A stretch of DNA of 64,000 nucleotides. Source: Gemmatimonadota bacterium. Lineage in GTDB: Bacteria > Gemmatimonadota > Gemmatimonadetes > Gemmatimonadales > GWC2-71-9. Below the pieces are notes generated by a model. That model did no database searches, was not told the origin of the DNA, and was given only the letters and a program-made list of their open reading frames with translations. This document shows positions 4,852 through 45,461 of this stretch, in pieces (position 1 is the stretch's first letter; the number at the start of each line of letters is the position of its first letter). The stretch covers positions 37,126 to 101,125 of the forward strand of contig JBBIUN010000006.1 in assembly GCA_037440225.1 (NCBI GenBank), written 5' to 3'. The position numbers and the translations under genes are program-made.

Positions 4852-4934
4852 TGGTGGGGGAAGGATTCGAACCTTCGTAGGCTAACGCCGGCAGATTTAC
4901 AGTCTGCTCCCTTTGACCGCTCGGGCACCCCACC
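4852..4934 (-). tRNA. tRNA-Tyr (anticodon GTA), long variable arm
   Basis: Minus strand, about 83 nt. Acceptor GGTGGGG/CCCCACC, anticodon arm GCAGA-CTGTAAA-TCTGC, long variable arm CGGCGTTAGCCTAC, T arm GAAGG-TTCGAAT-CCTTC. Confidence 0.88.
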
Positions 4935-5021
4935 GTTGCCCGCGCCGCTGCCGCCGGATGGGACCACCCCTCCTAGCCCCACGCCGTCCGTCCCACAAGC
5001 GCGCTCCCGCCCGGGTTACGG

Positions 5022-5094
5022 AGCTGACGAAGGGACTCGAACCCTTAACCTGCTGATTACAAATCAGCTGCTCTACCAGTTGAGCTACGTCAGC
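5022..5094 (-). tRNA. tRNA-Thr (anticodon TGT)
   Basis: Minus strand, 73 nt. Acceptor GCTGACG/CGTCAGC, D arm GCTC-AACTGGTA-GAGC, anticodon arm GCTGA-TTTGTAA-TCAGC, T arm AAGGG-TTCGAGT-CCCTT. Confidence 0.9.
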
Positions 5095-31656: not shown

Positions 31657-32325
31657 ATGCGCATCCTCATCGTCGAAGACGACCCGCAGCTACGCGAGAT
31701 CGTCGCCACCGCCCTCCGGGAGGAGGGCTACGAAGTGGTCACGGCCTCCTCGGTTCGCGAGGGGCGGGAGCGGGCCGTGTTCGGGGCGTACGGGCTCTTC
31801 ATCTTGGACATCATGCTTCCCGACGGGAGCGGCGTCGAGCTGTGCGCCGCGCTGCGCGATGCGGGAATCGCCACGCCGGTCCTGTTGCTCACCGCCCGGA
31901 ACACGGTGGACGACAAGGTCGCGGGGCTGGATGCCGGAGCGGACGACTATCTGCCGAAGCCGTTTGCGCTGCGCGAGCTGTCCGCCCGGGTCCGGGCGCT
32001 CCTGCGCCGTCCGCCCTCGGTGCAGCCCTCGGTCGCCCGCATTGCCGACCTCGAGGTGGACCTCCGCAGCCGCCGCGTGCGGCGTGCCGGCCGGGACATC
32101 GCGCTGACCGCCAAGGAGTTCGCCCTGCTCGAGTGCTTCGTGCTGCACCGGGATGCCGTCCTCGACCGGGCCACGATCACCGCCCACGTGTGGGACGAGA
32201 ACCACGATCCCTTCACCAATACGCTCGAGGTCCTGGTCCGGCGGCTGCGGCAGAAGATTGACGACGACTTTGCCCCCAAGCTGATCCACACCGTGCGCGG
32301 CGCCGGATACCGGTTCGGCCCCTGA
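31657..32325 (+). CDS. OmpR/PhoB-family response regulator
   Basis: 222 aa with a receiver domain (MRILIVEDD..., LFILDIMLPDGSG, ...DDYLPKPF) and a winged-helix C-terminus (...LTAKEFALLECF...IHTVRGAGYRFG). Confidence 0.93.
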   Translation: MRILIVEDDPQLREIVATALREEGYEVVTASSVREGRERAVFGAYGLFILDIMLPDGSGVELCAALRDAGIATPVLLLTARNTVDDKVAGLDAGADDYLPKPFALRELSARVRALLRRPPSVQPSVARIADLEVDLRSRRVRRAGRDIALTAKEFALLECFVLHRDAVLDRATITAHVWDENHDPFTNTLEVLVRRLRQKIDDDFAPKLIHTVRGAGYRFGP

Positions 32326-33644
32326 TGGACCCCCTCAAGCGCCTCCGCCTGCGGCTGACCGCCTGGTACGTGGGGACGTTCACGGTGGTGTTGGTGTTGC
32401 TCGGCTCGGGACTGTTCATCGCGCTGTCGGGCCAACTGTCCGGGGACCTGGACCTGCGGCTCGAAACGGCGGTGGCGGCGGTGCGCCGCACGATGGACGT
32501 CCGGGCGGCCTTCGGCACCGCACCGGAGCAGGCCCTGCGCGAGGCCGTGGCGGAAAACGCGGGGCCGGAGCGCTTGCTCTATCTCTTCGATGGAGCGGGC
32601 AAACCCCTCATCGCACCCAACCCCGTGGATCCGCGCATCGCGGCGGCAGCGGTGGACGCGGTCAACGAAGAGGATGCCGTGAGCGACGAATTCCGCACCT
32701 CCAGCCGCCAGCGCTGGAGGCTCTACGCGGAGCCGATTCTCTTGGGCGACGGCCAGGGCTTCGCCCTGGTGGCATTGGCCGACGCCACCGGATTCCAACG
32801 CCAGTTCAGCCGCCTGGTCCAGACGTTCATCGCCGCCGCGCTCCTCGCCTTGCTCCCGGTGGGCTTGGGCGGCTATCAGATCGCGCGCGTGTCGGCAGCG
32901 AGCGTGGAGCGGGCCATGGAGCGGTTGCGGACGCTCACGGCAGACGCGGCGCACGAGCTGCGGACGCCGGTATCCGTGATCCGGGGTCACGCCGAGCTGG
33001 CGATCCAACGGGAGCGCGATGCCGCATCCTACAGCGCCGCCCTGCAACAGATCGCCGCGGAAGCCCAACGCCTGGGCCAGCTCCTCGACAACCTCCTGAT
33101 GCTCGCCCGCGCCGAGGCCGGCGAGCGGCCCAGGCAACGCCGCCGGCTGTTCCTCGACGACCTTGCCGATCAGGCCGTGACCAGCGCCGCGGTGCTCGGC
33201 ACCGGGCGCGGCGTCCGCGTGTCCCTGGGACGGTTCGAGGAAACCCCCGTCGTCGCCGACCCGGACCTGTTGAGGCAGATGCTCATGATTCTGTTGGACA
33301 ACGGCATCAAGTTCACGCCCAGCGGCGGATCGGTCCAGGTGCACGTGTTCACCGAGCAGCATCATCCGGTGCTCGTGGTCGAGGACACCGGCATCGGGAT
33401 CGCACCCGAACACCTGCCGCACGTCTTCCAGCGATTCTACCGGGGAGATCGCAGCCGAAGCGGCGTGCCCGGAGCCGGGCTGGGATTGGCCATCGCCCGG
33501 TGGATTGCCGATCAGCACGACGCCACGATCAGCATCCACTCGGCGCTCGATCACGGTACCCGCGTCGAGGTCCGATTCCCCCCTCCCCCCGCACCGCCAT
33601 CCGAACAGCCACCAGCAGCCACAGCGCCAAGCAGCCAGGCCTGA
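32325..33644 (+). CDS. Sensor histidine kinase
   Basis: 439 aa with two N-terminal TM segments, the H-box DAAHELRTPVSVIRG, and N/G boxes (LLDNGIKFTP, VEDTGIGI, GAGLGLAI). The start overlaps the regulator stop (TGATG). Confidence 0.9.
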   Translation: MDPLKRLRLRLTAWYVGTFTVVLVLLGSGLFIALSGQLSGDLDLRLETAVAAVRRTMDVRAAFGTAPEQALREAVAENAGPERLLYLFDGAGKPLIAPNPVDPRIAAAAVDAVNEEDAVSDEFRTSSRQRWRLYAEPILLGDGQGFALVALADATGFQRQFSRLVQTFIAAALLALLPVGLGGYQIARVSAASVERAMERLRTLTADAAHELRTPVSVIRGHAELAIQRERDAASYSAALQQIAAEAQRLGQLLDNLLMLARAEAGERPRQRRRLFLDDLADQAVTSAAVLGTGRGVRVSLGRFEETPVVADPDLLRQMLMILLDNGIKFTPSGGSVQVHVFTEQHHPVLVVEDTGIGIAPEHLPHVFQRFYRGDRSRSGVPGAGLGLAIARWIADQHDATISIHSALDHGTRVEVRFPPPPAPPSEQPPAATAPSSQA

Positions 33645-33828
33645 GCGGACCTTGAGGACCGGCGGTGACCGACCCGGGGCGCAACTTCCTGCGCCGCCCG
33701 GTTGGTGCGCCGCTTGCCTCCCGCCATTCGCTGTCAGCCTGCTGTAAGGATGAGCGCGCGACTGTCATCGTAGCGTAAGCTCAGCGGACTATGCTTCGGC
33801 GCGTCATCCCACAGGACCCGCAGCATCC

Positions 33829-34713
33829 ATGCTGGCCGTGAAGCTGTTGAGCCTGAACATCTGGGACCTCCCAATCCCGCTTCCCGGCGTCAATCACCGG
33901 CGGCGCCGGAAGGAGATCTTGCAGCGCGTCCCGCAGCTCGGCGCCGATGTGGTGCTGATCCAAGAAGCCTTCCGGCCAGCCTTCAAGCTCGAGCTGCGCT
34001 GGGCGCTGCCCGACTACTACGCAGATCACTACCTGGCCGGCAGCCAACGCCGCTGGGGTGTACGGTTCGACGCCTCCGGCGGCTTGCTCACGCTCTCCCG
34101 TTGGCCGGTGCTGCGGTCGCGCTACCAGCCGGCCCGCACGTTTCCCGGCATGCGGTGGGACGAACTCCTGGGCTCCAAGGGCTGCCTCCTCACGCTGCTA
34201 CGGACTCCGGCCGGACCGCTTTGGGTCGGCAACGTGCACTTGCACGCGGGAACCGGCCGGAGCGCCCGGCAAGCTCGCGTGCTGCAAGTCCGGCACCTGC
34301 TCCGAGCTTTGCCCCACCACGAGAGCGGCAGGTTGCTACTGGGCGGCGACTTCAACATGGATCCGGCAACCGAGCAGCTCGAAGGGCCAACCGGCTTGGA
34401 CCTGTTGTTCCAGGCCGGCTTTCGCGAGGTGGCCGGTGCGGTGGGAGGTCGCCTTGCCACCGTGGTCCAGCGTCGCAACCGCTACGCACGGTACTGGCCG
34501 GGGCGGCATCCGGATCGCCGGTTGACGCATTTCTTCTGCCGGGGCGGCGGCATTCGGCCGGTGCCCGGCAGCGTCTCTGTGTGTCTCGATGATCCGCCGG
34601 TATCGGACCACTTCGGCTTGATGGCCCACTTCAAGTTGGCACCGGCAGGAGCCGTGCCGCGGACCGCCGGCGTCGAGCGGCAGGCTGCCGGCATCGGGGC
34701 GGGCGCGGAATGA
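33829..34713 (+). CDS. Endonuclease/exonuclease/phosphatase (EEP) family protein
   Basis: 294 aa with SLNIWDL, VVLIQEAF, GNVHLHAG, LLGGDFNMDP and VSDHFGL, the EEP catalytic motif series (sphingomyelinase/inositol-phosphatase-like fold). Confidence 0.8.
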   Translation: MLAVKLLSLNIWDLPIPLPGVNHRRRRKEILQRVPQLGADVVLIQEAFRPAFKLELRWALPDYYADHYLAGSQRRWGVRFDASGGLLTLSRWPVLRSRYQPARTFPGMRWDELLGSKGCLLTLLRTPAGPLWVGNVHLHAGTGRSARQARVLQVRHLLRALPHHESGRLLLGGDFNMDPATEQLEGPTGLDLLFQAGFREVAGAVGGRLATVVQRRNRYARYWPGRHPDRRLTHFFCRGGGIRPVPGSVSVCLDDPPVSDHFGLMAHFKLAPAGAVPRTAGVERQAAGIGAGAE

Positions 34714-35180
34714 TGGACGGGGACGGGGGCCGGGACGGATCGGCTGCCGGACGGCGGCGGGAGCGGTCGTCGCCCGCTCCAGCGGTCGGGGGCTGGCTCG
34801 GGGGTCGCGCCAGTGCCGGCTTGCTCGTGGCAGCCTTGACCATCGCCATTCCCCGCCTGCCGGTCCGGGCCCAGCAAGGCGACACAACCCGGCACGCGGC
34901 GCCCGATACGACCGCCGCCGAAGTCGTGCCCGTCACGGAGGCCTATCCCGGACTGCTGCAGCGCGCCAAGGTCAGTCCCGCCGCGGCGGTACGGGCGGCG
35001 CTGGCCAAGGTCAAGCACGGAAAGGTCGCCGCGGCGCAGATCGAAGAAAGGGGGCAACGTCTGGTGTACGTGCTCACGGTCGAGGATTCCAAGGGGCGAC
35101 CCCGAGAGGTCTTGGTGGACGCCGAGACGGGGCGCGTCTTGTCCAATCGCAAACTGTCGCGCATCGAATCCCAAGGCTAG
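34710..35180 (+). CDS. PepSY domain protein (secreted or anchored)
   Basis: 156 aa. The start overlaps the EEP stop (ATGA). It has a hydrophobic segment LLVAALTIAIP. The C-terminus ...AAVRAALAKVKHGKVAAAQIEERGQRLVYVLTVEDSKGRPREVLVDAETGRVLS fits the PepSY pattern. Confidence 0.6.
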   Translation: MMDGDGGRDGSAAGRRRERSSPAPAVGGWLGGRASAGLLVAALTIAIPRLPVRAQQGDTTRHAAPDTTAAEVVPVTEAYPGLLQRAKVSPAAAVRAALAKVKHGKVAAAQIEERGQRLVYVLTVEDSKGRPREVLVDAETGRVLSNRKLSRIESQG

Positions 35181-35183
35181 CGC

Positions 35184-35873
35184 ATGGCCATTCTCTTCGA
35201 TTTCGGGGGCACGTTGGACGCCGACGGGTTGCGGCTGAGCTTGCGGTTCTACCGCGCGTTCTGCCGCGCGGGCGGGCGGTTGCCGTTCGCCGAGTTCGAG
35301 TCCCTGTTCCGGGAGAGCGACCGGCGGCTGGCCGCGATGCCGGGGATCCGGCAGGCGGGCTGCCGGGACACCTTGGAGCTGCAAAGCGACCTGCTCGCCC
35401 GCCTCCTGGCCGACGCGGGGCACGACGCCGACCGCCGCGCCCTGGTGCAGCCGGTGCACGCCGGCATCCTGAAGATGGCAGCTCGCAACCGGCCCCTGCT
35501 CGAAGGGTTGGCCCGGGAGCACCGCTTGGGCGTGGTGTCCAACTTCACGGGCAACCTGACTGCCTGGCTCCGGGATCTCGATCTGCTCGCGCCCTTCGCC
35601 GTGGTGGCGGATTCCGCCGTGGTGGGCGTGGAGAAACCCGATCCCAGAATCCTCCGCCACGCCCTCGGTGCCCTGAACGCCGAACCCGCCGCGACGTGGA
35701 TGGTGGGCGACAATCCCTGGCACGACTTGATGCCCGCTGCAAAGATGGGGCTTGCGACCTGCTGGCTGGCACCGCCCGAGGACAGCCGCACCTGGCCTGG
35801 TGGCGTGCCCACGGCGCGGATCAGCAGTCTCACGCAACTGCCGGCCCTTCTTACGACCACATGCACGGCCTGA
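35184..35873 (+). CDS. HAD-superfamily hydrolase (phosphatase-type)
   Basis: 229 aa with motif I ILFDFGGTLD, motif II VVSNF, and motif III/IV ...VGVEKPDP...MVGDNPWHDL. Confidence 0.8.
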   Translation: MAILFDFGGTLDADGLRLSLRFYRAFCRAGGRLPFAEFESLFRESDRRLAAMPGIRQAGCRDTLELQSDLLARLLADAGHDADRRALVQPVHAGILKMAARNRPLLEGLAREHRLGVVSNFTGNLTAWLRDLDLLAPFAVVADSAVVGVEKPDPRILRHALGALNAEPAATWMVGDNPWHDLMPAAKMGLATCWLAPPEDSRTWPGGVPTARISSLTQLPALLTTTCTA

Positions 35874-36562
35874 TTTTGGCGGGTGGGCTTGGCAGTCGCC
35901 TCGCGGCGGACGGGGTCGTGGAGCCCAAGGCTTTGGTGCGCATCGGAGGGCGGCCGCAGTTGGCGCGGCTGTGTGACACCTTGGAAGTGCTGGGCTGCTC
36001 GACCATCACGTGCCTGGTCCGTGAGGGCGTCTCCGCGGCGACGGCGGTGGGCTCGAGCCCGGGGAGACGCGTTCTCTCTTGTGCCACCCCATCGTCGCTG
36101 CACACCCTGGTGCTGGGCTTGGAGGCGGTCCCTCCGGGCCCGGTCTTCTGCTCCATGGTGGATACGGTGATGCCGTGGGAGAGCTGGCAGGCTGTTTGGT
36201 CGGGTTGGATCAGGGCCAGCGCCGACGGGGTGCCCGCGATGGTCGCGGTGGCCCCGCGCTCGCCGCGAGAGGAGGCTCCCTTGTGGGTGAAGCTGGACGG
36301 CGCCTGCCGGGTCACCCACATCGGGGCCGGAGCCGCGCCGGCAACGTGGTGTACGGCAGGTGTGTACGGAATCGCGCCCCCGGCCAGGCGGCTTGCCGCC
36401 GTGGCCGCGGCGGAAGGCGTATCGCGCATGCGAGGCTTCCTGGCCCGGTTGGTTCGCGCCGGGCTCGAGATCCTGGCGATCCCGGTCGCCCGGGCGCTGG
36501 ACCTGGATCGCCGCGCCGATCTCGACGAAGCGAACGCCTGGGCGCCCGCGGAGGTGCCGTGA
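35861..36562 (+). CDS. Nucleotidyltransferase (NTP_transferase family)
   Basis: This is the C-terminal part of track ORF 35696..36562. ATG 35861 gives 233 aa starting MHGLILAGGLGSRLAADGVVEPKALVRIGGRP (the GGxGxRL nucleotide-binding signature). Confidence 0.7.
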   Translation: MHGLILAGGLGSRLAADGVVEPKALVRIGGRPQLARLCDTLEVLGCSTITCLVREGVSAATAVGSSPGRRVLSCATPSSLHTLVLGLEAVPPGPVFCSMVDTVMPWESWQAVWSGWIRASADGVPAMVAVAPRSPREEAPLWVKLDGACRVTHIGAGAAPATWCTAGVYGIAPPARRLAAVAAAEGVSRMRGFLARLVRAGLEILAIPVARALDLDRRADLDEANAWAPAEVP

Positions 36563-37413
36563 GACGCGCCGTCGCCCTGTACCGCAGTGCCGCGTATTCC
36601 CCGCGGCAGCACTTGCAGAACGACCGGGCCATCCTGGATGCCGTGGTGGAACAGCTTCGGATGTTCGGATGGAGGGTGCAGCCCGTGGCGGAGGACGAGG
36701 TCGCCTCGGGCCGGCTCCCTCCTGCCGAACTCTATCTCAACATGTGCCAGGGACCGGACGCGGCGCGCCGACTCCAAGCCTTGCTGCCCCGGGGAGCGCC
36801 GTGCATCAACGCCCCGGAGGCGGTGCTGGCGTGCCATCGCCACCGCCTGGTGCGGCGGCTGTCGGCGGCCGGTGTGGCCTTTCCGCCGACGGCGCTGGTG
36901 CGGACCAGCGGGCCGGGCGCGGCGAGCTCGCCCACGCATCTGGTCACCGCCAACGGCCATCCGGTTTGGGTCAAGCGCGGTGACGTGCACGCCCAGGCAC
37001 CCGAAGACGTGGTGTGCGTGCCGGTGAAGGAAGTCGGGCCCGCGATCGCGCGCTTTGCGCGGCGCGGCATCGGCACGGTGGTGATCCAGGCGCACGTGCC
37101 GGGCCCGGTGGTCAAGTTCTACGGCGTCATCGGCCGCCGGTTCTTTCACTGCTACGCCAGCGATCCCCGGGAGGGCGCCCTGAGCGCGGGGGACATCACC
37201 CGGCTTCACGAGCTGGCGGAACACGCCGCGCGCGCCCTCGGCCTTGCGGTCTACGGTGGCGACGCCGTGCTGGCCGCGCCGGGTTCGCCCGTTCTCATTG
37301 ATCTCAACGACTGGCCCAGCTTCGCACCGGTGCGCGCGGCGGCTGCCGCAGCGATCGCCCGCTACGCCCACCAGCGTGCCACGCGAGGGTACTACGCATG
37401 CTCGACACGTTGA
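36559..37413 (+). CDS. ATP-grasp fold protein (ligase or inositol-phosphate-kinase-like)
   Basis: GTG 36559 overlaps the previous stop (GTGA) and gives 284 aa. It shows ...WVKRGDVHA...VVIQAHVPGPVVKFYGV...YGGDAVL...VLIDLNDWPSF, the ATP-grasp strand/loop pattern. The substrate is unknown. Confidence 0.5.
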   Translation: MRRAVALYRSAAYSPRQHLQNDRAILDAVVEQLRMFGWRVQPVAEDEVASGRLPPAELYLNMCQGPDAARRLQALLPRGAPCINAPEAVLACHRHRLVRRLSAAGVAFPPTALVRTSGPGAASSPTHLVTANGHPVWVKRGDVHAQAPEDVVCVPVKEVGPAIARFARRGIGTVVIQAHVPGPVVKFYGVIGRRFFHCYASDPREGALSAGDITRLHELAEHAARALGLAVYGGDAVLAAPGSPVLIDLNDWPSFAPVRAAAAAAIARYAHQRATRGYYACSTR

Positions 37414-38729
37414 CTCGTCTCGAGGTCCCCGGGCCCCGGTCCCGGGCCGTCTTCGACGCCGAAGCACGGTACTTGGCTCCGGGTACGCAGAGTGTGGCCC
37501 TGTTCAGCCGGTTGTGCATCGAGCGTGGCGAGGGTGCCGTGCTCTACGACGTGGACGGCCGGCGCTACATTGACCTGATGGCCGGGGTGGGGGTGGCGAG
37601 CTTGGGCTACGCCCATCCTCGCTACGTGGCCGAGCTGACCCGGCAGCTCGAGCGAACCCACGTCGGGAGCTTCACCACCGAACACCGGGCCGCCCTGGTG
37701 GAGCTCATCGCTGCCATTACGCCGGGCGATCTCAACCGGACCCAGCTCTACAGCAGCGGAGCGGAGGCGGTGGAAGCGTCGCTCCGCCTGGCACGCGCCG
37801 CCACGGGCCGCCGGGAAATCCTGGGATTCTGGGGCGGCTTCCACGGCAAGACCGGCGGCGTGCTGCCGCTCTTGAGCGGCAGCTTCAAACACGGCTTGGG
37901 CCCCCTGGCGCCGGGTGCCTACAGCGCCCCGTATGCAAGCTGCGCGCGCTGCGCGTTCGGCCAAACCTTTCCCGAGTGCGGCTGGCGCTGCGTGGACTTT
38001 CTCCGGCACAAGATCCAGGCCGAGACCACCAACGACGTGGCCGCCATCGTGGTGGAGCCCATTCAGGGGACGGCGGGCAACGTGGTCCCCCCCGACGGAT
38101 ACCTCCGCCAGCTTCGAGCGCTCGCCGACGAGATCGGAGCGCTCTTGATCTGCGACGAAATGATCACCGGGTTCGGGCGAACGGGGCGGATGTTTGCGGT
38201 CGAGCACGACGGGGTCCTGCCCGATGTCCTGCTCGTAGGCAAGGGATTCGGAGGCGGATTTCCGGTCAGCGGCATCGTGGCGCGAGAGGGGATCGCCTTC
38301 GCCAAACCGTGGGCCAATCCCAGCGGCAGCTCGTCCAGTTACGGCGGCAATCCCCTAGCCGCCTGCGCCGCCCGCGTCACCATCCAGACCATCATCGAGG
38401 AAGGGCTGGTGGACCACAGCCGATCCCTGGGCGAACGCCTGCTGGCGGAGATGAAGCGATGGGAGGGAAGCATCCCCATCGTGTCCGCCGTGCGCGGGCG
38501 AGGTCTCTTGATCGGCATGGACTTGGTGGTCCCGGGAACCGACCGCCCGCTCGACCGGCAACATACCCGCCGGATCTTCGACGCCCTACTCGCTCGCGGG
38601 GTGATCGCCATGATCTACCAGCCGCAGGTTCGCATCAACCCGCCGCTGGTGATCACCGAGGAGCAGGCCTTCGAAGCCCTGGCCGCCATGGAGGAGGTCT
38701 TGCGTGAAGCCGCCGACCGCCTGGGCTAG
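37398..38729 (+). CDS. Class III pyridoxal-phosphate aminotransferase
   Basis: 443 aa with ...GFHGKT..., ...LICDEMITGFGRTGRMFA..., and ...LLVGKGFGGGFPVSG (PLP lysine context). Confidence 0.9.
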   Translation: MLDTLTRLEVPGPRSRAVFDAEARYLAPGTQSVALFSRLCIERGEGAVLYDVDGRRYIDLMAGVGVASLGYAHPRYVAELTRQLERTHVGSFTTEHRAALVELIAAITPGDLNRTQLYSSGAEAVEASLRLARAATGRREILGFWGGFHGKTGGVLPLLSGSFKHGLGPLAPGAYSAPYASCARCAFGQTFPECGWRCVDFLRHKIQAETTNDVAAIVVEPIQGTAGNVVPPDGYLRQLRALADEIGALLICDEMITGFGRTGRMFAVEHDGVLPDVLLVGKGFGGGFPVSGIVAREGIAFAKPWANPSGSSSSYGGNPLAACAARVTIQTIIEEGLVDHSRSLGERLLAEMKRWEGSIPIVSAVRGRGLLIGMDLVVPGTDRPLDRQHTRRIFDALLARGVIAMIYQPQVRINPPLVITEEQAFEALAAMEEVLREAADRLG

Positions 38730-39591
38730 CAAGGGACTCGAGATCGAGGAGTGGGCCGACCGGCGGTTCTTCCGCCCCCTCGGCTTCCGCGTGGCCGCCG
38801 CGCTGGCCCCCACCCGCCTGTCCGCCGACCACGTCACGGCGGCCTCTTTGCTGCTCGGCCTCGTGGCGGGCCACCTGTTCGCCTACCAGGCGTGGTGGTG
38901 GAACGCCGCCGGCCTCGCCTTGTTCGTCGGGTCCGACCTGCTCGACAGCGCGGACGGACAACTGGCGCGGATGCGCGAGAGCGCGACCCGCTGGGGCCGC
39001 CTGCTCGATGGCCTCGCGGACAATGCGCGCTTCCTCAACCTCTATCTCCATCTGCTCGTCCGCTTGTGGCGCGCCGGCTGGGGATGGGAAGCAACCGCGC
39101 TGGTGGCCGCGGCGGCGATCAGCCATTCGTTCCAGAGCGCCGCGGTGGATTTCGTGCGTAACGCCTATCTCTCGCTGGGGTTGGGCCGCGCCAGCGAGCT
39201 GGATCTGCCCGGAGAGATCTCGCCCGCCCCCGCGGCGCCGTGGGGACGACGCGCGGCCCGATGGCTCTACGCGGGCTACTTGCAGCGCCAAGCGCTCTTG
39301 TTCCCGCAGACCGTCGCCCTGGCCTCCTCGCTCGGAGAACGGGGCCTGCCGCCATCGCTGGCTGCGGCGTGGCGCCAGGAGCAGGCCGGGGTGCTCGCCG
39401 CCACCGCCTGGATCGGGCAGAACATCCGCTGGGCCCTCCTCGCGGGTACCGCCTGCCTGGGCTGGCCCGCCGGGTTCTGCTGGGCCACGGTGGGACCGCT
39501 GAACGCGGTGCTGGCAGCGATCCTCCTGGCGCACGAGCGGCACGCCCTCCACCTGAGCCATCCGCTCCGGCCCGTGATCTCGGATGCCTGA
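38704..39591 (+). CDS. CDP-alcohol phosphatidyltransferase family membrane protein (copy 1)
   Basis: 295 aa with a GTG start. The motif DLLDSADGQLARMR...GRLLDGLADN matches D-x2-D-G-x2-A-R...G-x3-D-x3-D, and there are multiple TM helices. Confidence 0.8.
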   Translation: MKPPTAWASKGLEIEEWADRRFFRPLGFRVAAALAPTRLSADHVTAASLLLGLVAGHLFAYQAWWWNAAGLALFVGSDLLDSADGQLARMRESATRWGRLLDGLADNARFLNLYLHLLVRLWRAGWGWEATALVAAAAISHSFQSAAVDFVRNAYLSLGLGRASELDLPGEISPAPAAPWGRRAARWLYAGYLQRQALLFPQTVALASSLGERGLPPSLAAAWRQEQAGVLAATAWIGQNIRWALLAGTACLGWPAGFCWATVGPLNAVLAAILLAHERHALHLSHPLRPVISDA

Positions 39592-40633
39592 GCTTGAGCG
39601 CGTGTACCGGGGCGCCATCGTGGGCTTGGGAGGAGTAGCCCGGCACGCTCACCTTCCGGCCTACTTGCACTACCCCGAGGTGCGGCGCCGGCTCCGCCTG
39701 GTGCTGGCCATGGACGAGAGTCCTACCGTATCTCCTCTCGAGGCCCTCGCCCTGGTGCACAGCCGCAGCGCACTCTTGGCCCGCGGGCCGCTGGACTTCG
39801 TAGATATTTGCACGCCCACGGCCACCCACCTCGAGCTGGCGACCTGGGCGCTGGCCCAGGGGTTCCACGTGCTGTGCGAGAAGCCCGTGGCCACCAGCCG
39901 CGCCGAGGCTTCCGTCATTGCCGCCGCGGCCGCCGCCGCCCAGCGGGTCGTGGTGCCCTGCCACCAGTACCGCTACAACCCGGCCTGGCGCACCCTGCGC
40001 CGGTGGCTGGAGGAGGGGCGCATCGGGCGGTGGCACCTGGCGCAATTCGAGGTCCATCGGCCGGCCGCGGACGCCGCTACGGCAGTCTCGGGCACGCCGT
40101 GGCGCGGCCAGCGGTGCCGCGGGCTGGGCGGGGTGCTGCTGGACCATGGCACCCACCTCCTCTACCAGCTCACCGACCTCGCCGGACTGCCGCGCTCGGT
40201 GCGAGCCTGGACCGGGCGCCTGCGCCACCCGGAATACGACGTGGAAGACACGGCGCATCTCTTGCTCGACTTCGGCGACCGGGCAGCGGTGTTGCTGCTG
40301 ACGTGGGCCGGTCACGGGCGCCAGAATCGCATCCGGTTCGTCGGGGACCGGGGAGCTATCGAGTGGTCGGGGGGGCTGTTGGCCCTGGAGGGCGACGGCC
40401 GGAGGGAGGTGCTCGACTTCACCGCGCAGCTCGATAAGAGCGCCTACCACGCCTGGTTTGCCGAACTGTTCGCCATCTTCGCCGACGCCATGGACCGCGG
40501 CGAGGGTGCCAGCCATCTGGCTGACATCGCGCGGGTGGCCACCCTGCTGGAAGCCTGCTACCGGGCGGCCGCACAGCCCGGCGTTCCGGTGCCCACGCCG
40601 GCGATCACGGAACCCGTCCAAGAGGTGGCGTGA
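39584..40633 (+). CDS. Gfo/Idh/MocA family NAD(P)-dependent oxidoreductase
   Basis: 349 aa with an N-terminal Rossmann region (GAIVGLGGVARHAHLPAY), ...VLCEKPVA..., and a C-terminal alpha/beta domain. Confidence 0.85.
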   Translation: MPELERVYRGAIVGLGGVARHAHLPAYLHYPEVRRRLRLVLAMDESPTVSPLEALALVHSRSALLARGPLDFVDICTPTATHLELATWALAQGFHVLCEKPVATSRAEASVIAAAAAAAQRVVVPCHQYRYNPAWRTLRRWLEEGRIGRWHLAQFEVHRPAADAATAVSGTPWRGQRCRGLGGVLLDHGTHLLYQLTDLAGLPRSVRAWTGRLRHPEYDVEDTAHLLLDFGDRAAVLLLTWAGHGRQNRIRFVGDRGAIEWSGGLLALEGDGRREVLDFTAQLDKSAYHAWFAELFAIFADAMDRGEGASHLADIARVATLLEACYRAAAQPGVPVPTPAITEPVQEVA

Positions 40634-40649
40634 GGCGCCGGGCGCTCTC

Positions 40650-41087
40650 ATGACCATCGTCACGCACGTGCTCGGCACCGCCCTCGGCGTCCAGGTGCTC
40701 GGACTACGAGGCCGGGATGCCTACCTCGCCTATGCCTTCGGCGTCGCCGTGGACCTCGACCACGTGATCAAGCTGCCCCGGTACCTCAAGGCGGTGGGAT
40801 GGGCCAACCGGCGGGGCTACTACTGGCGGTCGTCGCTCCAAGAACCGGTGGCGCTGCTCTGGATCGTGCCGCTGTCCTTCCTGTTGGGCACAGCCGTCCC
40901 GACCGTCTTTTTCTTGCTGCACCTGGCCCTGGACTACCTGGTCAGTTACGAGAAGATGCCCTGGTACCCTTACAGCCTGCGCGTCACACGGGGGTGGCTG
41001 GTGGCGCTGCCCGACCGGGTGAAGGAAGGCGTCCTCCTGGCGGTGTTCGCGTGCTCCAACCTTTTCCTGCTCTGGAATCGGCTCTAG
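40650..41087 (+). CDS. Small polytopic membrane protein (YdjM/DUF457-like metal-dependent hydrolase?)
   Basis: This is the C-terminal part of track ORF 40458..41087. ATG 40650 gives 145 aa: [17 protein letters not shown]...[12 protein letters not shown]...LHLALDYLV. His/Asp-rich loops lie between TM helices. Confidence 0.45.
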
Positions 41088-41662
41088 GCCGCGTCCTGCG
41101 ACCGCTGGTTCGCGCGGCGCACCTCAGGGCCGGGCTTTCCCCCAACCAGGTCACCTGGTTGGCGTTCGGCGCCAGTGTCCTGGCGGCCGGGACCATCGCC
41201 ACGGGCCAGGTCCTGCCCGGCCTCGCGCTCATGGCGCTGGGGCAAGTCCTGGATGCGCTGGACGGAGCCATTGCCCGGGAGTTCGATCTGGCCTCGCTCG
41301 CGGGGCACCGGCTGGACACGGTGCTCGATCGGGCATCCGAGATCGCGATTTTCGCAGCATGCGGGTGGTCCGGGCTGGCATCCTGGAAGCTCGTGGCCTT
41401 GGCGAGCTATGCGGTCTTGCTGGTCACCACGGTGGCCGACCGAGCGCGCTGGGATCCCGGCGCCAAGCGCGTGGTGCTGTATCTCGGTCTCTGGTTTCCG
41501 TTCCCCGCCCTGTTCACCGCCATCGTGGTGGCGAACTTGGCAGGCTTCGCGATCGCCCTCCTCCGGCTCGACCTCGAGTTTCAGCACCGCATGGATGCGC
41601 TGGGCGGCGACCTCGATACGGTCGCCTCGCGCGCGGCTCGGTGGAGAGAGGATCGGGGCTGA
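41051..41662 (+). CDS. CDP-alcohol phosphatidyltransferase family membrane protein (copy 2)
   Basis: This is the C-terminal part of track ORF 40799..41662. The motif is [12 protein letters not shown]...[13 protein letters not shown]. The start is uncertain: GTG 41051 gives a 37-nt overlap with the previous gene, and CTG 41096 is an alternative. Confidence 0.68.
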
Positions 41663-41798: not shown

Positions 41799-42362
41799 CT
41801 ACGCCGCGATCGCGCCCCCGCACTGGGCACAGAACTTGGCCCCATCCAAGAGCGGGGCCCCGCAGTTGCGGCAGCGCGCGGGAGCCGCCGGCGCCAGCAG
41901 CGATCGGCCGCAGCGGGAACAAAACACCGCGTTGGGCTCCGGCCGAGGCCCGCAGGTGGGACAGGTCCTCGACGCCGATTGCCGAGCCCGGCGAATGAGT
42001 TCCTCGGCGCGCTCGCTCACGGAGGCGGAAGCCCCCCGCCCGGCAGGTCCCGCCGCGGCCGTCCCTCCGGCCGGCGCCTCCTCCTCCGCCCGAATGGCGG
42101 CAATGGCCTCCGATTCGTACTTGGCCTTGAGCCGCCGGTAGTCGTCTTCCGAGAGTTTGCCGGTGGCCCGATCGAACTCGATCTCTCGAAGCGCCAAGAG
42201 CGAGCGCACCTTGGGCGAGTCGGACTCCGCAGGATCGCCGAGGTCCACATCGTCTTCCGCTGCGGGAACGGCCGCGCTCCGGGGCAGGACCAAGGGCTCC
42301 AGCACCAAGGCCAGCGCAGCTAGGGCTACGAGGAGGCCCGCCACCAGCTCCCACATGCTCAC
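41799..42362 (-). CDS. CcmI-like N-terminal module fused to double zinc-ribbon C-terminus
   Basis: 187 aa with an N-terminal TM helix and LALREIEFDRATGKLSEDDYRRLKAKYE (a CcmI/CycH N-terminal-like motif). The C-terminus has CPTCG...CSRCG...CRNCG...CAQCG. 4-nt overlap with ccmH. Confidence 0.5.
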   Translation of the reverse strand: MSMWELVAGLLVALAALALVLEPLVLPRSAAVPAAEDDVDLGDPAESDSPKVRSLLALREIEFDRATGKLSEDDYRRLKAKYESEAIAAIRAEEEAPAGGTAAAGPAGRGASASVSERAEELIRRARQSASRTCPTCGPRPEPNAVFCSRCGRSLLAPAAPARCRNCGAPLLDGAKFCAQCGGAIAA

Positions 42363-43018
42363 AGCTCCAGCCGCTCGAGTTCGGCCTTGAGGCGGGCGGC
42401 ATCTTCCGGTGGCAGCGTGGAGCCCGCCTCGGAGTCTCCGCCCTCCGGAGAGGCGCCTCCAGCCGCCGCCAGCCTAGCCCCACGCTTCCGAAGCAACACC
42501 CACGCCAGCACCGCGCCCACCAGGGTGATCAGGATGCCGGGCACCAAGTAGCCGGCCAAGTTGAAGCCCACCTTGGGCGGGGCCATCAACACGGACTCGC
42601 CGTACTGGGCCACGAAGGCGTCCAGGATCTCCTGCGCCGATTTCCGCTGCTCGACCAGCTCCACCACTCGCCGGTGCATGGCGGGCGAGGTTTCGCAGGT
42701 GAAATCCGTGGTGCGGCAGGTGTACACGCTGAGGTTGCAGCCGCAGGTGCAGCGCAGCTTCTCCTCCACGCCGACCACGAAGGGATCATTCTCGTACTCG
42801 CTCACGCGGGTGCGGAGCTTGCCCGCGCGGCTGGGGTCCCAGAGTTCCCCCACCAGGGTGTCGGGTGCCGCCGGCTGCGGGGACGGCGCGTCTCGAAGAG
42901 CCGCCCTGGCGGCCCCACCGGCCTGGCGCGCCGCTTGCGGGGCAACGAGGACCGGCAGCGCGATCGCCAGCACCCCCCGCACGAGGTCTCGTCGCGACTG
43001 GCTCAGCGACTCACTCAT
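42359..43018 (-). CDS. ccmH: Cytochrome c-type biogenesis protein CcmH-like (atypical Cys motif)
   Basis: 219 aa with a Tat-like N-terminus SRRDLVRGVL. KLRCTCGCNLSVYTC...EILDAFVAQYGESVLMAPP, followed by a TM helix, fits the CcmH family layout. The usual LRCxxCQ motif is replaced by LRCTCGC. Confidence 0.7.
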   Translation of the reverse strand: MSESLSQSRRDLVRGVLAIALPVLVAPQAARQAGGAARAALRDAPSPQPAAPDTLVGELWDPSRAGKLRTRVSEYENDPFVVGVEEKLRCTCGCNLSVYTCRTTDFTCETSPAMHRRVVELVEQRKSAQEILDAFVAQYGESVLMAPPKVGFNLAGYLVPGILITLVGAVLAWVLLRKRGARLAAAGGASPEGGDSEAGSTLPPEDAARLKAELERLEL

Positions 43019-45053: not shown

Positions 45054-45056
45054 GAC

Positions 45057-45461
45057 TCAGGCCTTGGGCACCGACTCATACCGCGAGCCGCACTTGGCCA
45101 ACAGCGTCGTCGCCCGGAACGTGCCATCCGGCATCAGGCGCCCCTCGACCACCACGTCCACGTTGTCCGTGAAGGTGTCGGGCGCGAGCCCCCGGTATAC
45201 GACGGGATAGGTCTGCTGCCCGTCCGTCACCTGAAACGTGATGGTCTGGGAAGCCACGTCGCGCCGAATGCTGCCCGCCACCACTCGGGCGCCGAGTTTG
45301 ACCCCTACGTTGTAGAACGAGGGATCCGCCGCCACCCGGCCGGCCAGTTCGGTGGGCGTCAAGAAATACACCCCGGTGTCCTTGATACCCGAAGCCATGA
45401 GATAGCCCACCGTACCTACCACCAGGGCCGCGCCAATCAGGATGCGAGTGCGTGCGTTCAT
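45057..45461 (-). CDS. ccmE: Heme chaperone CcmE, Cys (CxxxY) variant
   Basis: 134 aa with an N-terminal anchor and an OB-fold body (...GVKLGARVVAGSIRRD...VVVEGRL...). The C-terminal motif LAKCGSRYES sits where classical CcmE has LAKHDE.Y. Confidence 0.88.
   Translation of the reverse strand: MNARTRILIGAALVVGTVGYLMASGIKDTGVYFLTPTELAGRVAADPSFYNVGVKLGARVVAGSIRRDVASQTITFQVTDGQQTYPVVYRGLAPDTFTDNVDVVVEGRLMPDGTFRATTLLAKCGSRYESVPKA

What the first reader, a model, noticed from the sequence alone, without database searches (positions are those of the whole stretch)
33829..41662. A ten-gene coupled operon with two CDP-alcohol phosphatidyltransferases, a nucleotidyltransferase, oxidoreductase, aminotransferase, ATP-grasp, HAD and EEP phosphatases may make an aminated polyol or inositol-type head group or solute
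Seen: all ten genes are on the plus strand with overlaps or gaps of at most 16 nt.
- EEP/PepSY: ATGA overlap.
- PepSY to HAD: 3-nt gap.
- HAD/nucleotidyltransferase: 13-nt overlap.
- Nucleotidyltransferase/ATP-grasp: GTGA overlap.
- ATP-grasp/aminotransferase: 16-nt overlap.
- Aminotransferase/transferase 1: 26-nt overlap.
- Transferase 1/oxidoreductase: 8-nt overlap.
Established:
- A nucleotidyltransferase plus a CDP-alcohol transferase (plus a phosphatase) is the logic of CDP-inositol/di-myo-inositol-phosphate synthesis and of alternative phosphatidylinositol routes.
- A Gfo/Idh/MocA dehydrogenase plus a class III aminotransferase is the standard way to turn a sugar or cyclitol hydroxyl into an amine (for example inosamine formation).
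- The ATP-grasp fold covers both carboxylate-amine ligases and inositol-phosphate kinases.
- The EEP fold includes inositol-phosphate phosphatases and sphingomyelinase-type lipid phosphodiesterases.
Inference: the operon could build a CDP-activated, aminated (possibly acylated or aminoacylated) polyol and attach it to a lipid or a second alcohol. I cannot match the full set to a described pathway, and no inositol-phosphate synthase is present in the window.
Basis: partly seen in the sequence, partly recalled or inferred. Interest (0 to 1): 0.6.

Follow-up and report, generated by a model that had tools for sequence, protein, structure and literature searches.

The report
Conserved inositol-lipid head-group operon with amination module
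This Gemmatimonadales operon is a real, widely conserved and still uncharacterised gene set that most likely builds a CDP-activated, probably aminated, inositol head group for a membrane phospholipid or sphingolipid, which would be a lipid class nobody has described.

Summary
Ten tightly coupled plus-strand genes occupy 33829-41662 and all have the stated families. Two junction details are off: one overlap is 26 nt, and the true start of the last gene gives a 37-nt overlap.

Only eight genes form the conserved core: HAD, NTP transferase, ATP-grasp, class-III aminotransferase, CDP-alcohol transferase 1, Gfo/Idh/MocA, a small membrane protein and CDP-alcohol transferase 2. The EEP and PepSY genes are lineage-specific additions.

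The ATP-grasp family occurs in at least 590 species genomes of Gemmatimonadota, Verrucomicrobiota, Ignavibacteria, Bacteroidota and Chlorobiota, always with the NTP transferase, HAD and transferase 1. A Bacteroides locus lacking the aminotransferase and dehydrogenase matches the unconfirmed 'alternative inositol lipid cluster' of Heaver et al. 2022.

- **Inositol link:** myo-inositol-phosphate synthase sits in or beside 13 related loci.
- **Lipid link:** MlaEFD, MprF-type flippase genes and a putative ceramide cassette (Spt-like, GNAT, reductase, PAP2_3) are linked in relatives.
- **ATP-grasp:** its best sequence matches are ITPK inositol-phosphate kinases, and it is found fused to the NTP transferase and HAD.

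Best reading: a kinase, phosphatase and cytidylyltransferase activate inositol phosphate, a dehydrogenase plus aminotransferase aminate it, and it is transferred to a lipid. The chemistry is inferred, not shown.

The parts
31657..32325 (+). OmpR-type response regulator, upstream on the same strand; a candidate regulator of the operon
   Evidence: Pfam Response_reg plus Trans_reg_C. The same regulator and kinase pair precedes the cluster in L003, L084 and L086.
32325..33644 (+). Membrane histidine kinase, overlapping the regulator gene by 1 nt
   Evidence: Pfam HisKA plus HATPase_c; hydrophobic segments.
33731..33779 (+). Imperfect direct repeat (CTGTCAGCCTGCTGTAAG / CTGTCATCGTAGCGTAAG, 31-nt spacing) in the 184-nt gap before the first gene. 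It may be a regulator-binding site; this was not tested.
   Evidence: the repeat finder family D1. No sigma-70 consensus was found.
33829..34713 (+). EEP-fold phosphodiesterase, sphingomyelinase-C-like; a lineage-specific addition
   Evidence: Pfam Exo_endo_phos 1.9e-16. The only PDB sequence hit is sphingomyelinase C 7cne, E 2.8e-4. Present in L084 and L086 only.
34710..35180 (+). PepSY-domain protein with one N-terminal membrane segment; a lineage-specific addition
   Evidence: Pfam PepSY 6.8e-10; membrane-like segment at residues 29-48. Found in L084 and L085, absent from L086.
35184..35873 (+). HAD-IA hydrolase with an atypical motif I (D-F-G-G-T, so the Asp+2 position is Gly). Inferred to be the head-group phosphate phosphatase.
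   Evidence: Pfam Hydrolase and HAD_2. The D-x-G-G-T motif is present in all sampled homologues across phyla. Fused to NTP-ATPgrasp or to ATP-grasp in P0194 and P0261.
35861..36562 (+). MobA-like nucleotidyltransferase. Inferred to be a CTP:inositol-phosphate cytidylyltransferase.
   Evidence: Pfam NTP_transf_3 9.2e-12. Weak N-terminal hits to G1P cytidylyltransferase and IPCT/DIPPS. 24% identity to the NTP transferase of the Bacteroides locus L082. Fused to the ATP-grasp in six representative clusters.
36559..37413 (+). ATP-grasp enzyme of an unnamed family. Inferred to be an ITPK-like inositol(-phosphate) kinase.
   Evidence: No Pfam or NCBIfam hit. AlphaFold pLDDT 81.6. Foldseek matches RimK, Ddl and LysX at E about 1e-12. 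The cross-phylum profile's best PDB hits are ITPK4 at 1.3e-5 and ITPK1 at 0.003-0.008, against RimK at 0.045. Invariant residues include K139, K186, D235 and D248-x-N250.
37398..38729 (+). Class-III (GabT-like) PLP aminotransferase. Inferred to aminate a keto-inositol intermediate.
   Evidence: Pfam Aminotran_3 2e-92. Closest PDB entries are GabT and related enzymes. 51-57% identical to cluster orthologues in other phyla.
38704..39591 (+). CDP-alcohol phosphotransferase 1 (295 aa), the transferase conserved in every version of the cluster
   Evidence: Pfam CDP-OH_P_transf. The intact motif DSADGQLAR-x8-GRLLDGLAD is read directly from the translation. Best NCBIfam hits are AIPS 48 bits, PIPS 39 and DIPPS 29, against PgsA 19. 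Closest PDB entry is AF2299.
39584..40633 (+). Gfo/Idh/MocA NAD(P) dehydrogenase. Inferred to oxidise an inositol hydroxyl to a ketone.
   Evidence: Three Pfam GFO domains. NCBIfam hits include IolG inositol 2-dehydrogenase at 8e-19. EKP and D-x-G-x-H motifs are conserved.
40650..41087 (+). 145-aa polytopic membrane protein, always paired with transferase 2. It may be a membrane metal-dependent hydrolase; the evidence is weak.
   Evidence: YdjM hit at E 0.0013-0.005, below threshold, in 3 of 10 members. Invariant H6, D35-x-D37-H38, H91, D95 and E101. 37-nt overlap with transferase 2, here and in L001.
41051..41662 (+). CDP-alcohol phosphatidyltransferase 2 (203 aa), PIPS-like. Start revised to GTG 41051.
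   Evidence: Pfam CDP-OH_P_transf. Motif DALDGAIAR-x8-GHRLDTVLD. NCBIfam AIPS 61 bits and PIPS 54. Closest PDB entries are the M. tuberculosis and M. kansasii PIP synthases 6h53 and 6wm5, at 1.8e-8.

Best explanation
The operon makes the polar head group of an inositol-containing membrane lipid and attaches it.

**Shown**
- The gene families, and the fact that the genes form a conserved functional unit.
- The link of that unit to myo-inositol-phosphate synthase and to lipid-handling genes in relatives.

**Inferred mechanism**
1. Inositol-3-phosphate comes from an unlinked MIPS gene.
2. The soluble trio processes it: ATP-grasp as an ITPK-like kinase, HAD as a phosphatase, and the NTP transferase as a cytidylyltransferase. 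The product is a CDP-activated inositol. This is the same kinase, phosphatase, nucleotidyltransferase logic as ADP-heptose synthesis.
3. The Gfo/Idh/MocA dehydrogenase and the class-III aminotransferase convert one ring hydroxyl to an amine at some soluble stage, giving an inosamine-type head group.
4. CDP-alcohol transferase 1 joins this head group to a lipid, either diacylglycerol or ceramide.
5. The PIPS-like transferase 2, with its partner membrane protein, makes ordinary phosphatidylinositol via PIP.
6. The sphingomyelinase-like EEP enzyme and the PepSY protein are lineage-specific remodelling or regulatory extras.
7. The adjacent two-component system probably controls expression.

The net effect would be to replace an anionic inositol lipid with a zwitterionic one. 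That is functionally comparable to lysyl-PG or aminoarabinose modification.
For: - **Synteny.** The core order is conserved in about 60 Gemmatimonadota loci and permuted in Verrucomicrobiota, Ignavibacteria, Bacteroidota and Chlorobiota.
- **Known relative.** L082 reads TetR-NTP-ATPgrasp-CDPOH-LPG_synthase_TM-HAD-MIPS-DUF4833-CarboxypepD_reg. This is the gene content Heaver et al. describe for the B. vulgatus-type alternative inositol lipid cluster. Species carrying that cluster make inositol-phosphoryl-dihydroceramide without the PIPS route.
- **Inositol link.** MIPS is adjacent in 11 FCB-group loci and in L090, including 9 loci with the aminotransferase and dehydrogenase, and lies about 5 kb away in Gemmatimonadales L020. 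MIPS is common in Gemmatimonadota.
- **Transferases.** Both score best against AIPS, PIPS and DIPPS, and against PIPS and AF2299 in the PDB.
- **ATP-grasp.** The fold is confirmed. The best sequence-profile hits are ITPK4 and ITPK1, and Ins134_P3_kin gives the best weak Pfam E-value.
- **Fusions.** NTP-ATPgrasp occurs in six representative clusters, and HAD-NTP-ATPgrasp and ATPgrasp-HAD occur once each, inside intact clusters. A CDP-alcohol transferase-HAD fusion is reported in P. veroralis.
- **Lipid context.**
  - LPG_synthase_TM is in most relatives.
  - MlaEFD is embedded in the operon in eight Ignavibacteria-type loci and lies downstream in seven Gemmatimonadales loci.
  - A PAP2_3, reductase, GNAT and Spt-like cassette abuts the cluster in 17 Gemmatimonadales loci, and GNAT plus Spt-like genes flank it in Verrucomicrobiota, three of which also carry a sphingolipid desaturase.
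  - The EEP protein is closest to sphingomyelinase C.
Against: - There are no experimental data for any protein of this family. Even the Bacteroides core cluster is unconfirmed.
- No MIPS, flippase, Mla or ceramide gene lies in this 64-kb window.
- By structure, the ATP-grasp is closest to ligases (RimK, Ddl, LysX), and no ITPK entry appears in the top 50. It misses the ITPK Pfam threshold.
- The HAD lacks the Asp+2 general acid/base typical of phosphatases.
- Known inosose aminotransferases belong to the DegT family, not class III. This rests on my own knowledge.
- The substrate of the dehydrogenase and aminotransferase pair is unknown.
- I found no amino-inositol lipid in the literature searched.
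Confidence: 0.55

Rival explanations
1. Same pathway, but the ATP-grasp is a ligase and not a kinase. It would attach a carboxylate, such as an amino acid, to the inositol or inosamine head group as an ester or amide. The result would be an aminoacylated inositol lipid, which the MprF-like flippase then exports.
For: Foldseek's top hits are all carboxylate-amine or carboxylate-thiol ligases (RimK, Ddl, LysX/ArgX, DcsG, PsnB). A stand-alone LPG_synthase_TM gene, the flippase domain of MprF, is linked in most relatives. ATPgrasp_ST gives a weak hit in 5 of 13 members.
Against: The ATP-grasp is retained in cluster variants with no aminotransferase or dehydrogenase, so no amine would be available there. 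Its sequence profile prefers ITPK kinases over RimK, 1.3e-5 against 0.045. Fusions to the NTP transferase and HAD fit consecutive steps on a small phosphorylated molecule.
Confidence: 0.2
2. The product is a soluble compatible solute of the di-myo-inositol-phosphate type, possibly aminated, made by IPCT/DIPPS-like logic: CDP-inositol plus inositol phosphate, followed by a phosphatase.
For: NTP transferase, CDP-alcohol transferase and phosphatase together are exactly the DIP logic. Both transferases have DIPPS among their NCBIfam hits. Transferase 1 is closest to AF2299 and IPCT-DIPPS in the PDB. DIPPS is itself a membrane protein acting on soluble substrates (my own knowledge).
Against: Flippase, MlaEFD, ceramide-synthesis and PAP2_3 genes are linked in relatives. 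The homologous Bacteroides cluster correlates with inositol sphingolipid production. Carriers are mesophilic soil and sediment taxa rather than hyperthermophiles. DIPPS scores are lower than the AIPS and PIPS scores.
Confidence: 0.1
3. The activated alcohol is not inositol but another polyol or sugar phosphate, for example an aminopentitol or serinol-type head group. Under this reading the MIPS linkage in other phyla reflects a different substrate in those lineages.
For: No MIPS lies in the window, and most Gemmatimonadales and all Verrucomicrobiota loci lack an adjacent MIPS. Class-III aminotransferases typically act on aldehydes and omega-amines. Aminopentanetetrol phospholipids exist, and the papers I found describe no biosynthetic genes for them.
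Against: The four core proteins are orthologous across all loci, at 24-57% identity with conserved order. MIPS sits inside nine clusters that carry the aminotransferase and dehydrogenase. MIPS is common in Gemmatimonadota. Both transferases fall in the inositol-phosphate clade. The taxa known to have aminopentanetetrol lipids are not the carriers seen here.
Confidence: 0.12
4. The genes belong to separate ordinary pathways (housekeeping PgsA/Pss, an unrelated aminotransferase and so on) that merely lie next to each other.
For: None beyond the generic family names.
Against: Synteny is conserved across four phyla. Translational coupling is seen at nine junctions. Domain fusions occur between three of the genes. 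Scores against PgsA and PssA are poor.
Confidence: 0.02

Closest known systems
Bacteroides vulgatus / Prevotella-type 'putative alternative inositol lipid cluster' (Heaver et al. 2022, PMC9246714)
   Same: [quoted passage not shown] The ATP-grasp gene lies between the NTP transferase and the transferase in L082, and an LPG-synthase-TM gene and MIPS are adjacent.
   Different: The published description names three genes and does not mention the ATP-grasp (0 occurrences). It has no aminotransferase, Gfo/Idh/MocA, second transferase, 145-aa membrane protein, EEP or PepSY gene. Its function is itself unconfirmed. The window lacks the adjacent MIPS and the flippase gene.
Mycobacterial / Bacteroides thetaiotaomicron PIPS route (MIPS, then PIP synthase, then PIP phosphatase)
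   Same: Transferase 2 is closest to the M. tuberculosis and M. kansasii PIP synthases and to the AIPS and PIPS NCBIfam models. It is paired with a membrane protein that could be the phosphatase; that role is inferred.
   Different: Scores are far below the equivalog cut-offs (54-61 bits against 170-180). The partner is YdjM-like, whereas I recall the PIP phosphatase of the Bacteroides route being PgpA-type. This pair is only part of the operon and is restricted to Gemmatimonadales.
IPCT/DIPPS di-myo-inositol-phosphate synthesis of hyperthermophiles
   Same: A cytidylyltransferase makes a CDP-alcohol, a CDP-alcohol transferase of the same clade uses it, and a phosphatase finishes. Transferase 1 hits AF2299 and IPCT-DIPPS structures.
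   Different: The genes are separate and not fused as in IPCT/DIPPS. The NCBIfam score is 29-31 against a cut-off of 580. An extra kinase-like ATP-grasp and an amination module are present. The context points to lipid, not solute.
ADP-heptose pathway (GmhA, HldE kinase/adenylyltransferase, GmhB HAD phosphatase): an analogy of logic only
   Same: An isomerase- or cyclase-made sugar phosphate is phosphorylated at a second position. A HAD phosphatase removes the original phosphate, and a nucleotidyltransferase activates the product. Kinase-nucleotidyltransferase fusions exist in both systems (and my own knowledge of HldE).
   Different: The enzyme families for the kinase (ATP-grasp against PfkB) and the nucleotidyltransferase are unrelated. 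The order of steps here is hypothetical.
Dehydrogenase-plus-aminotransferase amination modules (NtdC/NtdA kanosamine-6-phosphate; ArnA/ArnB aminoarabinose; inosamine formation in aminocyclitol pathways)
   Same: A Gfo/Idh/MocA or related dehydrogenase makes a keto sugar or cyclitol, often phosphorylated or nucleotide-activated, and a PLP enzyme aminates it. In the Arn case the product lowers membrane negative charge and is controlled by a two-component system (my own knowledge).
   Different: Those aminotransferases are DegT/AHBA-type, whereas this one is class III and GabT-like. No sequence orthology was found.

Membership tests
B. vulgatus-type alternative inositol lipid cluster | [quoted passage not shown] | tested here: met
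   Tested indirectly through the Bacteroides sp. locus L082, whose gene content matches the published cluster. Window proteins hit the L082 NTP transferase, transferase and HAD at E 4e-23, 5e-30 and 8e-23. The BVU sequences themselves were not available.
B. vulgatus-type alternative inositol lipid cluster | MIPS gene in the immediate vicinity | tested here: not met
   No MIPS hit anywhere in the 64-kb window. The feature is met in 13 related loci, and MIPS is common elsewhere in Gemmatimonadota genomes.
B. vulgatus-type alternative inositol lipid cluster | The organism makes inositol-phosphoryl lipid (PI-DHC or PI) | not testable with these tools
   Requires lipidomics.
CDP-alcohol phosphotransferase superfamily | Motif D-x2-D-G-x2-A-R-x8-G-x3-D-x3-D on a polytopic membrane protein | tested here: met
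   Both proteins carry it: DSADGQLAR...GRLLDGLAD and DALDGAIAR...GHRLDTVLD, read. Pfam PF01066 is above threshold for both.
PIP synthase / archaetidylinositol-phosphate synthase equivalogs | Score above the NCBIfam equivalog cut-off (170-180 bits) | tested here: not met
   Transferase 1 scores 48 and 39 bits; transferase 2 scores 61 and 54 bits. These are the best-scoring families, but the proteins are not members by the curated threshold.
IPCT/DIPPS | Fused cytidylyltransferase and transferase, scoring at least 580 bits | tested here: not met
   The genes are separate. Scores are 18.5, 28.8 and 31.1 bits.
ATP-grasp superfamily | Three-domain ATP-grasp fold with ATP-binding lysines and a D/E...D/E-x-N magnesium site | tested here: met
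   Foldseek E of 1e-12 and TM 0.6-0.7 to RimK, Ddl and LysX. K139, K186, D235 and D248-x-N250 are invariant across phyla.
ITPK1 / Ins(1,3,4)P3 5/6-kinase family | Sequence membership (Pfam PF05770 gathering score) and inositol-phosphate kinase activity | tested here: inconclusive
   The cross-phylum profile hits ITPK4 at E 1.3e-5 and ITPK1 at 0.003-0.008, ahead of RimK. PF05770 is reached only weakly, by 3 of 13 members with a best E of 0.0015 and below threshold. Activity is untestable here.
HAD phosphatases | Motif I D-x-D-x-T (nucleophile plus Asp+2 acid/base) with motifs II-IV | tested here: not met
   Motif I is D-x-G-G-T here and in all sampled homologues. Motifs II (SN), III (KP) and IV (GD-x3-D) are conserved. 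The Pfam HAD domains are above threshold.
Gfo/Idh/MocA oxidoreductases | N-terminal Rossmann domain, C-terminal alpha/beta domain and the EKP motif | tested here: met
   PF01408, PF22725 and PF02894. C98-E-K-P101 and D187-x-G-x-H191 are conserved. IolG scores 67.7 bits against a cut-off of 355, so it is not an IolG equivalog.
Class-III aminotransferases | PF00202 domain with the PLP-lysine region | tested here: met
   310 bits. No NCBIfam equivalog cut-off is reached; the best is PRK05769 at 360 against 552.
Bacterial ceramide synthesis locus (Spt, bCerS, CerR) | Spt-like AOS, acyltransferase and NDUFA9-like reductase genes present | tested here: not met
   Absent from the window. Present next to the cluster in at least 22 Gemmatimonadales loci and in part in 6 Verrucomicrobiota loci. 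The gene set is as described in PMC11087976.

The most novel reading that the evidence does not exclude
Soil and sediment bacteria of at least four phyla (Gemmatimonadota, Verrucomicrobiota, Ignavibacteriota and some Bacteroidota relatives) make a previously undescribed lipid class. It would be an amino-inositol (inosamine) phosphoglycerolipid or phosphosphingolipid, built through a bacterial ITPK-like inositol-phosphate kinase and a CDP-inosamine intermediate, and used to tune membrane surface charge under two-component control.
Probability: 0.3. Interest if true: 0.8.

Novelty: new variant of a known kind. Interest (0 to 1): 0.65.

Why it matters
- **Bacterial inositol lipids.** They are regarded as rare, and the 'alternative' route proposed for Bacteroidota has never been confirmed. 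This analysis shows that the route's core has a fourth, overlooked gene: an ATP-grasp with ITPK-like sequence features.
- **Breadth.** The core is widespread outside the gut, in at least 590 species genomes and more than 1,200 clusters at 50% identity.
- **Amination module.** Most environmental versions carry an oxidation and transamination module that predicts an aminated inositol head group.
- **Unexpected sphingolipid producers.** The linkage to ceramide-synthesis-like genes flags Gemmatimonadota and Chthoniobacterales as likely sphingolipid producers.
- **If the chemistry holds.** It would add a new zwitterionic lipid class and a new biomarker for abundant soil phyla. It would also give a bacterial precedent for ITPK-type kinases, and concrete gene roles for the unconfirmed Bacteroides/Prevotella pathway, which matters for host-microbe inositol-lipid signalling.

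Tried and rejected
**Literature searches that found nothing on this gene set**
- Searches for the gene combination, for follow-ups of the alternative inositol pathway, for inosamine lipids, for aminopentanetetrol biosynthesis and for Gemmatimonadota sphingolipids returned nothing beyond Heaver et al. 2022. Two of these searches were too loosely specified and were swamped by unrelated papers.

- The promoter and terminator scan was uninformative: 0 promoters, and terminators at the chance level.
- Pfam and NCBIfam give no family for the ATP-grasp or the 145-aa protein at normal thresholds.

**Ideas considered and rejected**
- Ordinary PgsA or PssA identity for the transferases: scores are only 19-21 bits.
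- A LysW-type amino-acid pathway (ATP-grasp LysX plus class-III LysJ): it offers family-level resemblance only, and the context is wholly different.
- Aminopentanetetrol as the product: the carrier taxa do not match and MIPS is linked, so I kept it only as a minor rival.
- The ten-gene unit as the conserved entity: EEP and PepSY are confined to the closest relatives.

**Not attempted**
- I did not predict structures for the 145-aa protein, because its alignment contains sequences the tool does not accept.

Full report
**Observation**

The window has about 69% GC. Homologues of its proteins are labelled Gemmatimonadales. Between 33829 and 41662 there are ten plus-strand genes.

Pfam assigns nine of them:
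- Exo_endo_phos
- PepSY
- HAD
- NTP_transf_3
- Aminotran_3
- CDP-OH_P_transf (two genes)
- Gfo/Idh/MocA
- a weak YdjM-like hit for a 145-aa membrane protein

The tenth gene (36559-37413) has no Pfam or NCBIfam hit. An AlphaFold model with pLDDT 81.6 matches RimK, D-Ala-D-Ala ligase and LysX at Foldseek E of about 1e-12 and TM 0.6-0.7.

The junctions are -4, +3, -13, -4, -16, -26, -8, +16 and -37 nt. The last gene starts at GTG 41051, not at the ATG at 40799. This gives the same 37-nt overlap with the upstream gene as in relatives. All ten ORFs have GC3 of 0.82-0.89.

An OmpR-type response regulator and a histidine kinase lie directly upstream on the same strand. Convergent zinc-ribbon and ccm genes lie downstream.

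**A conserved unit, but of eight genes**

I used the ATP-grasp as a probe. There are 2,747 homologues at E of 1e-3 or better among the candidates scored. An exhaustive HMMER search finds 1,234 clusters at 50% identity. A scan of one genome per species returned at least 590 loci.

A tblastn map of the 80 best loci shows the following arrangements:
- **Gemmatimonadota (about 60 loci):** HAD-NTP-ATPgrasp-AT3-CDPOH1-GFO, usually followed by LPG_synthase_TM, the 145-aa protein and CDPOH2. Often an alpha/beta hydrolase, a GT4 glycosyltransferase and a polysaccharide deacetylase follow as well.
- **Chthoniobacterales / 'Spartobacteria':** CDPOH1-HAD-NTP-ATPgrasp-AT3-GFO.
- **Ignavibacteria, Melioribacteraceae and some Bacteroidota:** NTP...ATPgrasp-AT3-CDPOH1-GFO-LPGTM-HAD.
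- **Four loci (L065, L073, L081, L082):** NTP, ATP-grasp, CDPOH1 and HAD are kept (with LPGTM in all but L081), but the aminotransferase and dehydrogenase are missing.

EEP and PepSY occur only in the nearest relatives, L084 at 95% identity and L086 at 68%. The window's lineage has lost the flippase, hydrolase, GT4 and deacetylase genes.

The invariant core is therefore NTP transferase, ATP-grasp, transferase 1 and HAD. The aminotransferase and Gfo/Idh/MocA form an optional but very common module. Transferase 2 and the 145-aa protein form a Gemmatimonadales module.

**Link to inositol**

L082, from a Bacteroides MAG, reads TetR-NTP-ATPgrasp-CDPOH-LPG_synthase_TM-HAD-MIPS-DUF4833-CarboxypepD_reg. 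This is the gene content Heaver et al. (PMC9246714) describe for the 'putative alternative inositol lipid cluster' of B. vulgatus and Prevotella. [quoted passage not shown] Those species make inositol-phosphoryl-dihydroceramide without the PIPS cluster, and the gene functions are explicitly unconfirmed. The paper never mentions the ATP-grasp gene.

Further evidence for inositol:
- MIPS follows the HAD gene in 11 FCB-group loci and lies in the operon of L090.
- Nine of these loci carry the aminotransferase and dehydrogenase.
- MIPS is about 5 kb away in Gemmatimonadales L020.
- The window has no MIPS, but MIPS is common in Gemmatimonadales, Gemmatimonadaceae and Longimicrobiales.

Both CDP-alcohol transferases have intact catalytic motifs. 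NCBIfam scores:

| Protein | AIPS | PIPS | DIPPS | PgsA | PssA |
|---|---|---|---|---|---|
| Transferase 1 | 48 bits | 39 bits | 29 bits | 19 bits | about 21 bits |
| Transferase 2 | 61 bits | 54 bits | 31 bits | no hit | about 19 bits |

All of these scores are below the equivalog cut-offs.

In the PDB, transferase 2 is nearest to the mycobacterial PIP synthases (1.8e-8). Transferase 1 is nearest to AF2299 and IPCT-DIPPS. The two share only the catalytic motif.

**Link to lipids**

- A stand-alone MprF-type flippase domain is in most relatives.
- MlaE-MlaF-MlaD are embedded between the NTP transferase and the ATP-grasp in eight Ignavibacteria-type loci, and lie just downstream in seven Gemmatimonadales loci.
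- In 17 Gemmatimonadales loci the cluster is followed, convergently, by PAP2_3, an NAD-dependent epimerase-family reductase, a GNAT acyltransferase and an alpha-oxoamine synthase.
  - The best NCBIfam match of that synthase is serine palmitoyltransferase, at 505 bits against a cut-off of 640, ahead of BioF.
  - Five more loci have three of the four genes.
  - This matches the bacterial ceramide set of Spt, bCerS (acyltransferase) and CerR (NDUFA9-like reductase) described in PMC11087976.
  - PAP2_3 is, to my knowledge, the family of AUR1-type inositol-phosphorylceramide synthases.
- In Verrucomicrobiota the cluster is flanked by the GNAT and the Spt-like gene. Three loci add a sphingolipid delta-4-desaturase. 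A third, DIPPS-like CDP-alcohol transferase is also present.
- The window's EEP protein has sphingomyelinase C as its only PDB sequence hit.

None of these lipid genes is in the window itself.

**The soluble trio**

A cross-phylum profile of the ATP-grasp (alignment A2) hits these PDB entries:

| PDB match | E-value |
|---|---|
| Arabidopsis ITPK4 | 1.3e-5 |
| Entamoeba ITPK1 | 0.0026 |
| Human ITPK1 | 0.0075 |
| RimK | 0.045 |

The aligned region covers Q-x-H...KFY, GGD and I-D-L-N-D-W-P-S-F, against 'vvDlNylPSF' in ITPK. Ins134_P3_kin gives the best weak Pfam E-value.

Among the representative clusters:
- six encode NTP_transf_3-ATPgrasp fusions;
- one encodes a HAD-NTP-ATPgrasp triple fusion;
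- one encodes ATPgrasp-HAD.

Two of these fusions were checked and sit in intact clusters. Heaver et al. also report a transferase-HAD fusion.

These fusions argue that the three soluble enzymes act consecutively on one small molecule. The simplest scheme is:
1. MIPS makes Ins3P.
2. The ATP-grasp phosphorylates another position.
3. The HAD removes a phosphate.
4. The NTP transferase makes the CDP-alcohol.
5. Transferase 1 uses it.

This is analogous to GmhA, HldE and GmhB in ADP-heptose synthesis, and it is inference.

Two facts weaken the scheme. By structure the ATP-grasp resembles ligases most. The HAD has D-x-G-G-T in place of D-x-D-x-T in every sampled homologue.

**Amination**

The aminotransferase is GabT-like and is the best-conserved protein of the cluster: 67-81% identity within Gemmatimonadota and 51-57% between phyla. 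The dehydrogenase has the EKP and D-x-G-x-H motifs and counts IolG among its weak matches.

A Gfo/Idh/MocA enzyme followed by an aminotransferase is the standard hydroxyl to ketone to amine conversion. NtdC/NtdA act this way on glucose-6-phosphate, and the Gfo/Idh/MocA family is named partly after MocA of inosamine metabolism. Both points rest on my own knowledge.

The ATP-grasp persists where this module is absent. It is therefore unlikely to be dedicated to acylating the new amine. Which intermediate is aminated cannot be decided here.

**Verdict**

- the unit is an inositol-lipid head-group pathway;
- it is related to an unconfirmed Bacteroidota cluster;
- it is extended by an amination module and a PIPS-like module;
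- in relatives it is physically tied to flippase, Mla and ceramide genes.

I found no description of this extended cluster, or of an amino-inositol lipid, in the literature searched. I rate it a new variant of a known kind, of good interest, with all the chemistry still to be demonstrated.

Noticed in passing
window 33731-33779: Imperfect 18-nt direct repeat with 31-nt spacing in the 184-nt gap between the histidine kinase gene and the first operon gene. It could be a response-regulator binding site. Conservation in relatives was not checked.
   Followed up: no
window 35184-35873 and HAD homologues in loci L001-L083: HAD motif I reads D-x-G-G-T in every sampled homologue across four phyla, so the Asp+2 acid/base residue is Gly. 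This is unusual for a phosphatase and may indicate a modified mechanism or a transferase role.
   Followed up: partly
P0122, P0171, P0190, P0196, P0213, P0255, P0194, P0261; loci L088 and L090: Natural fusions NTP-transferase-ATPgrasp, HAD-NTP-ATPgrasp and ATPgrasp-HAD occur in unidentified groundwater MAG lineages, with the rest of the cluster intact. In L090, MIPS is in the same operon.
   Followed up: partly
L017 16098-20408, with equivalents in 16 other Gemmatimonadales loci; L074 5262-7726 and 13090-15713: A putative ceramide-synthesis cassette (Spt-like AOS, GNAT acyltransferase, NDUFA9-type reductase) plus a PAP2_3 enzyme abuts the cluster. This suggests that Gemmatimonadota and Chthoniobacterales make inositol sphingolipids. 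I found no report of this.
   Followed up: partly
L067 7365-9865, and L065, L069, L070, L076, L077, L079, L080: MlaE-MlaF-MlaD lipid-transport genes are inserted inside the operon, between the NTP transferase and the ATP-grasp, in Ignavibacteria and Melioribacteraceae.
   Followed up: partly
L061 (contig labelled Hyphomicrobiales MAG): This contig carries a Gemmatimonadales-like cluster: ATP-grasp 52% and aminotransferase 75% identical to the window's. It is probably a mis-binned contig rather than an alphaproteobacterial occurrence.
   Followed up: no
P0253 (691 aa): A PAS-HisKA-HATPase_c histidine kinase is fused to the ATP-grasp domain. It is either a gene-call read-through of the adjacent sensor kinase or a genuine regulatory fusion.
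   Followed up: no
L001 16031-18623, L003, L086: Many Gemmatimonadales versions continue with an alpha/beta hydrolase, a GT4 glycosyltransferase and a NodB-type deacetylase. This hints at a GlcNAc to GlcN decoration of the inositol lipid, similar to GPI or mycothiol logic. The window lacks these genes.
   Followed up: no
window 28637-31437 (- strand): A large multihaem c-type cytochrome (ORF up to 803 aa; the close relative L084 calls it at 612 aa) and an NHL-repeat protein lie divergent from the two-component system. The same neighbours occur in the 95% relative L084.
   Followed up: no
window 4665-5094 (- strand); 41799-45461 (- strand): A tRNA cluster Thr-Gly-Tyr-Thr lies at 4665-5094. A double zinc-ribbon protein followed by ccmH, ccmF and ccmE lies convergent to the operon end. 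Both are ordinary context.
   Followed up: no
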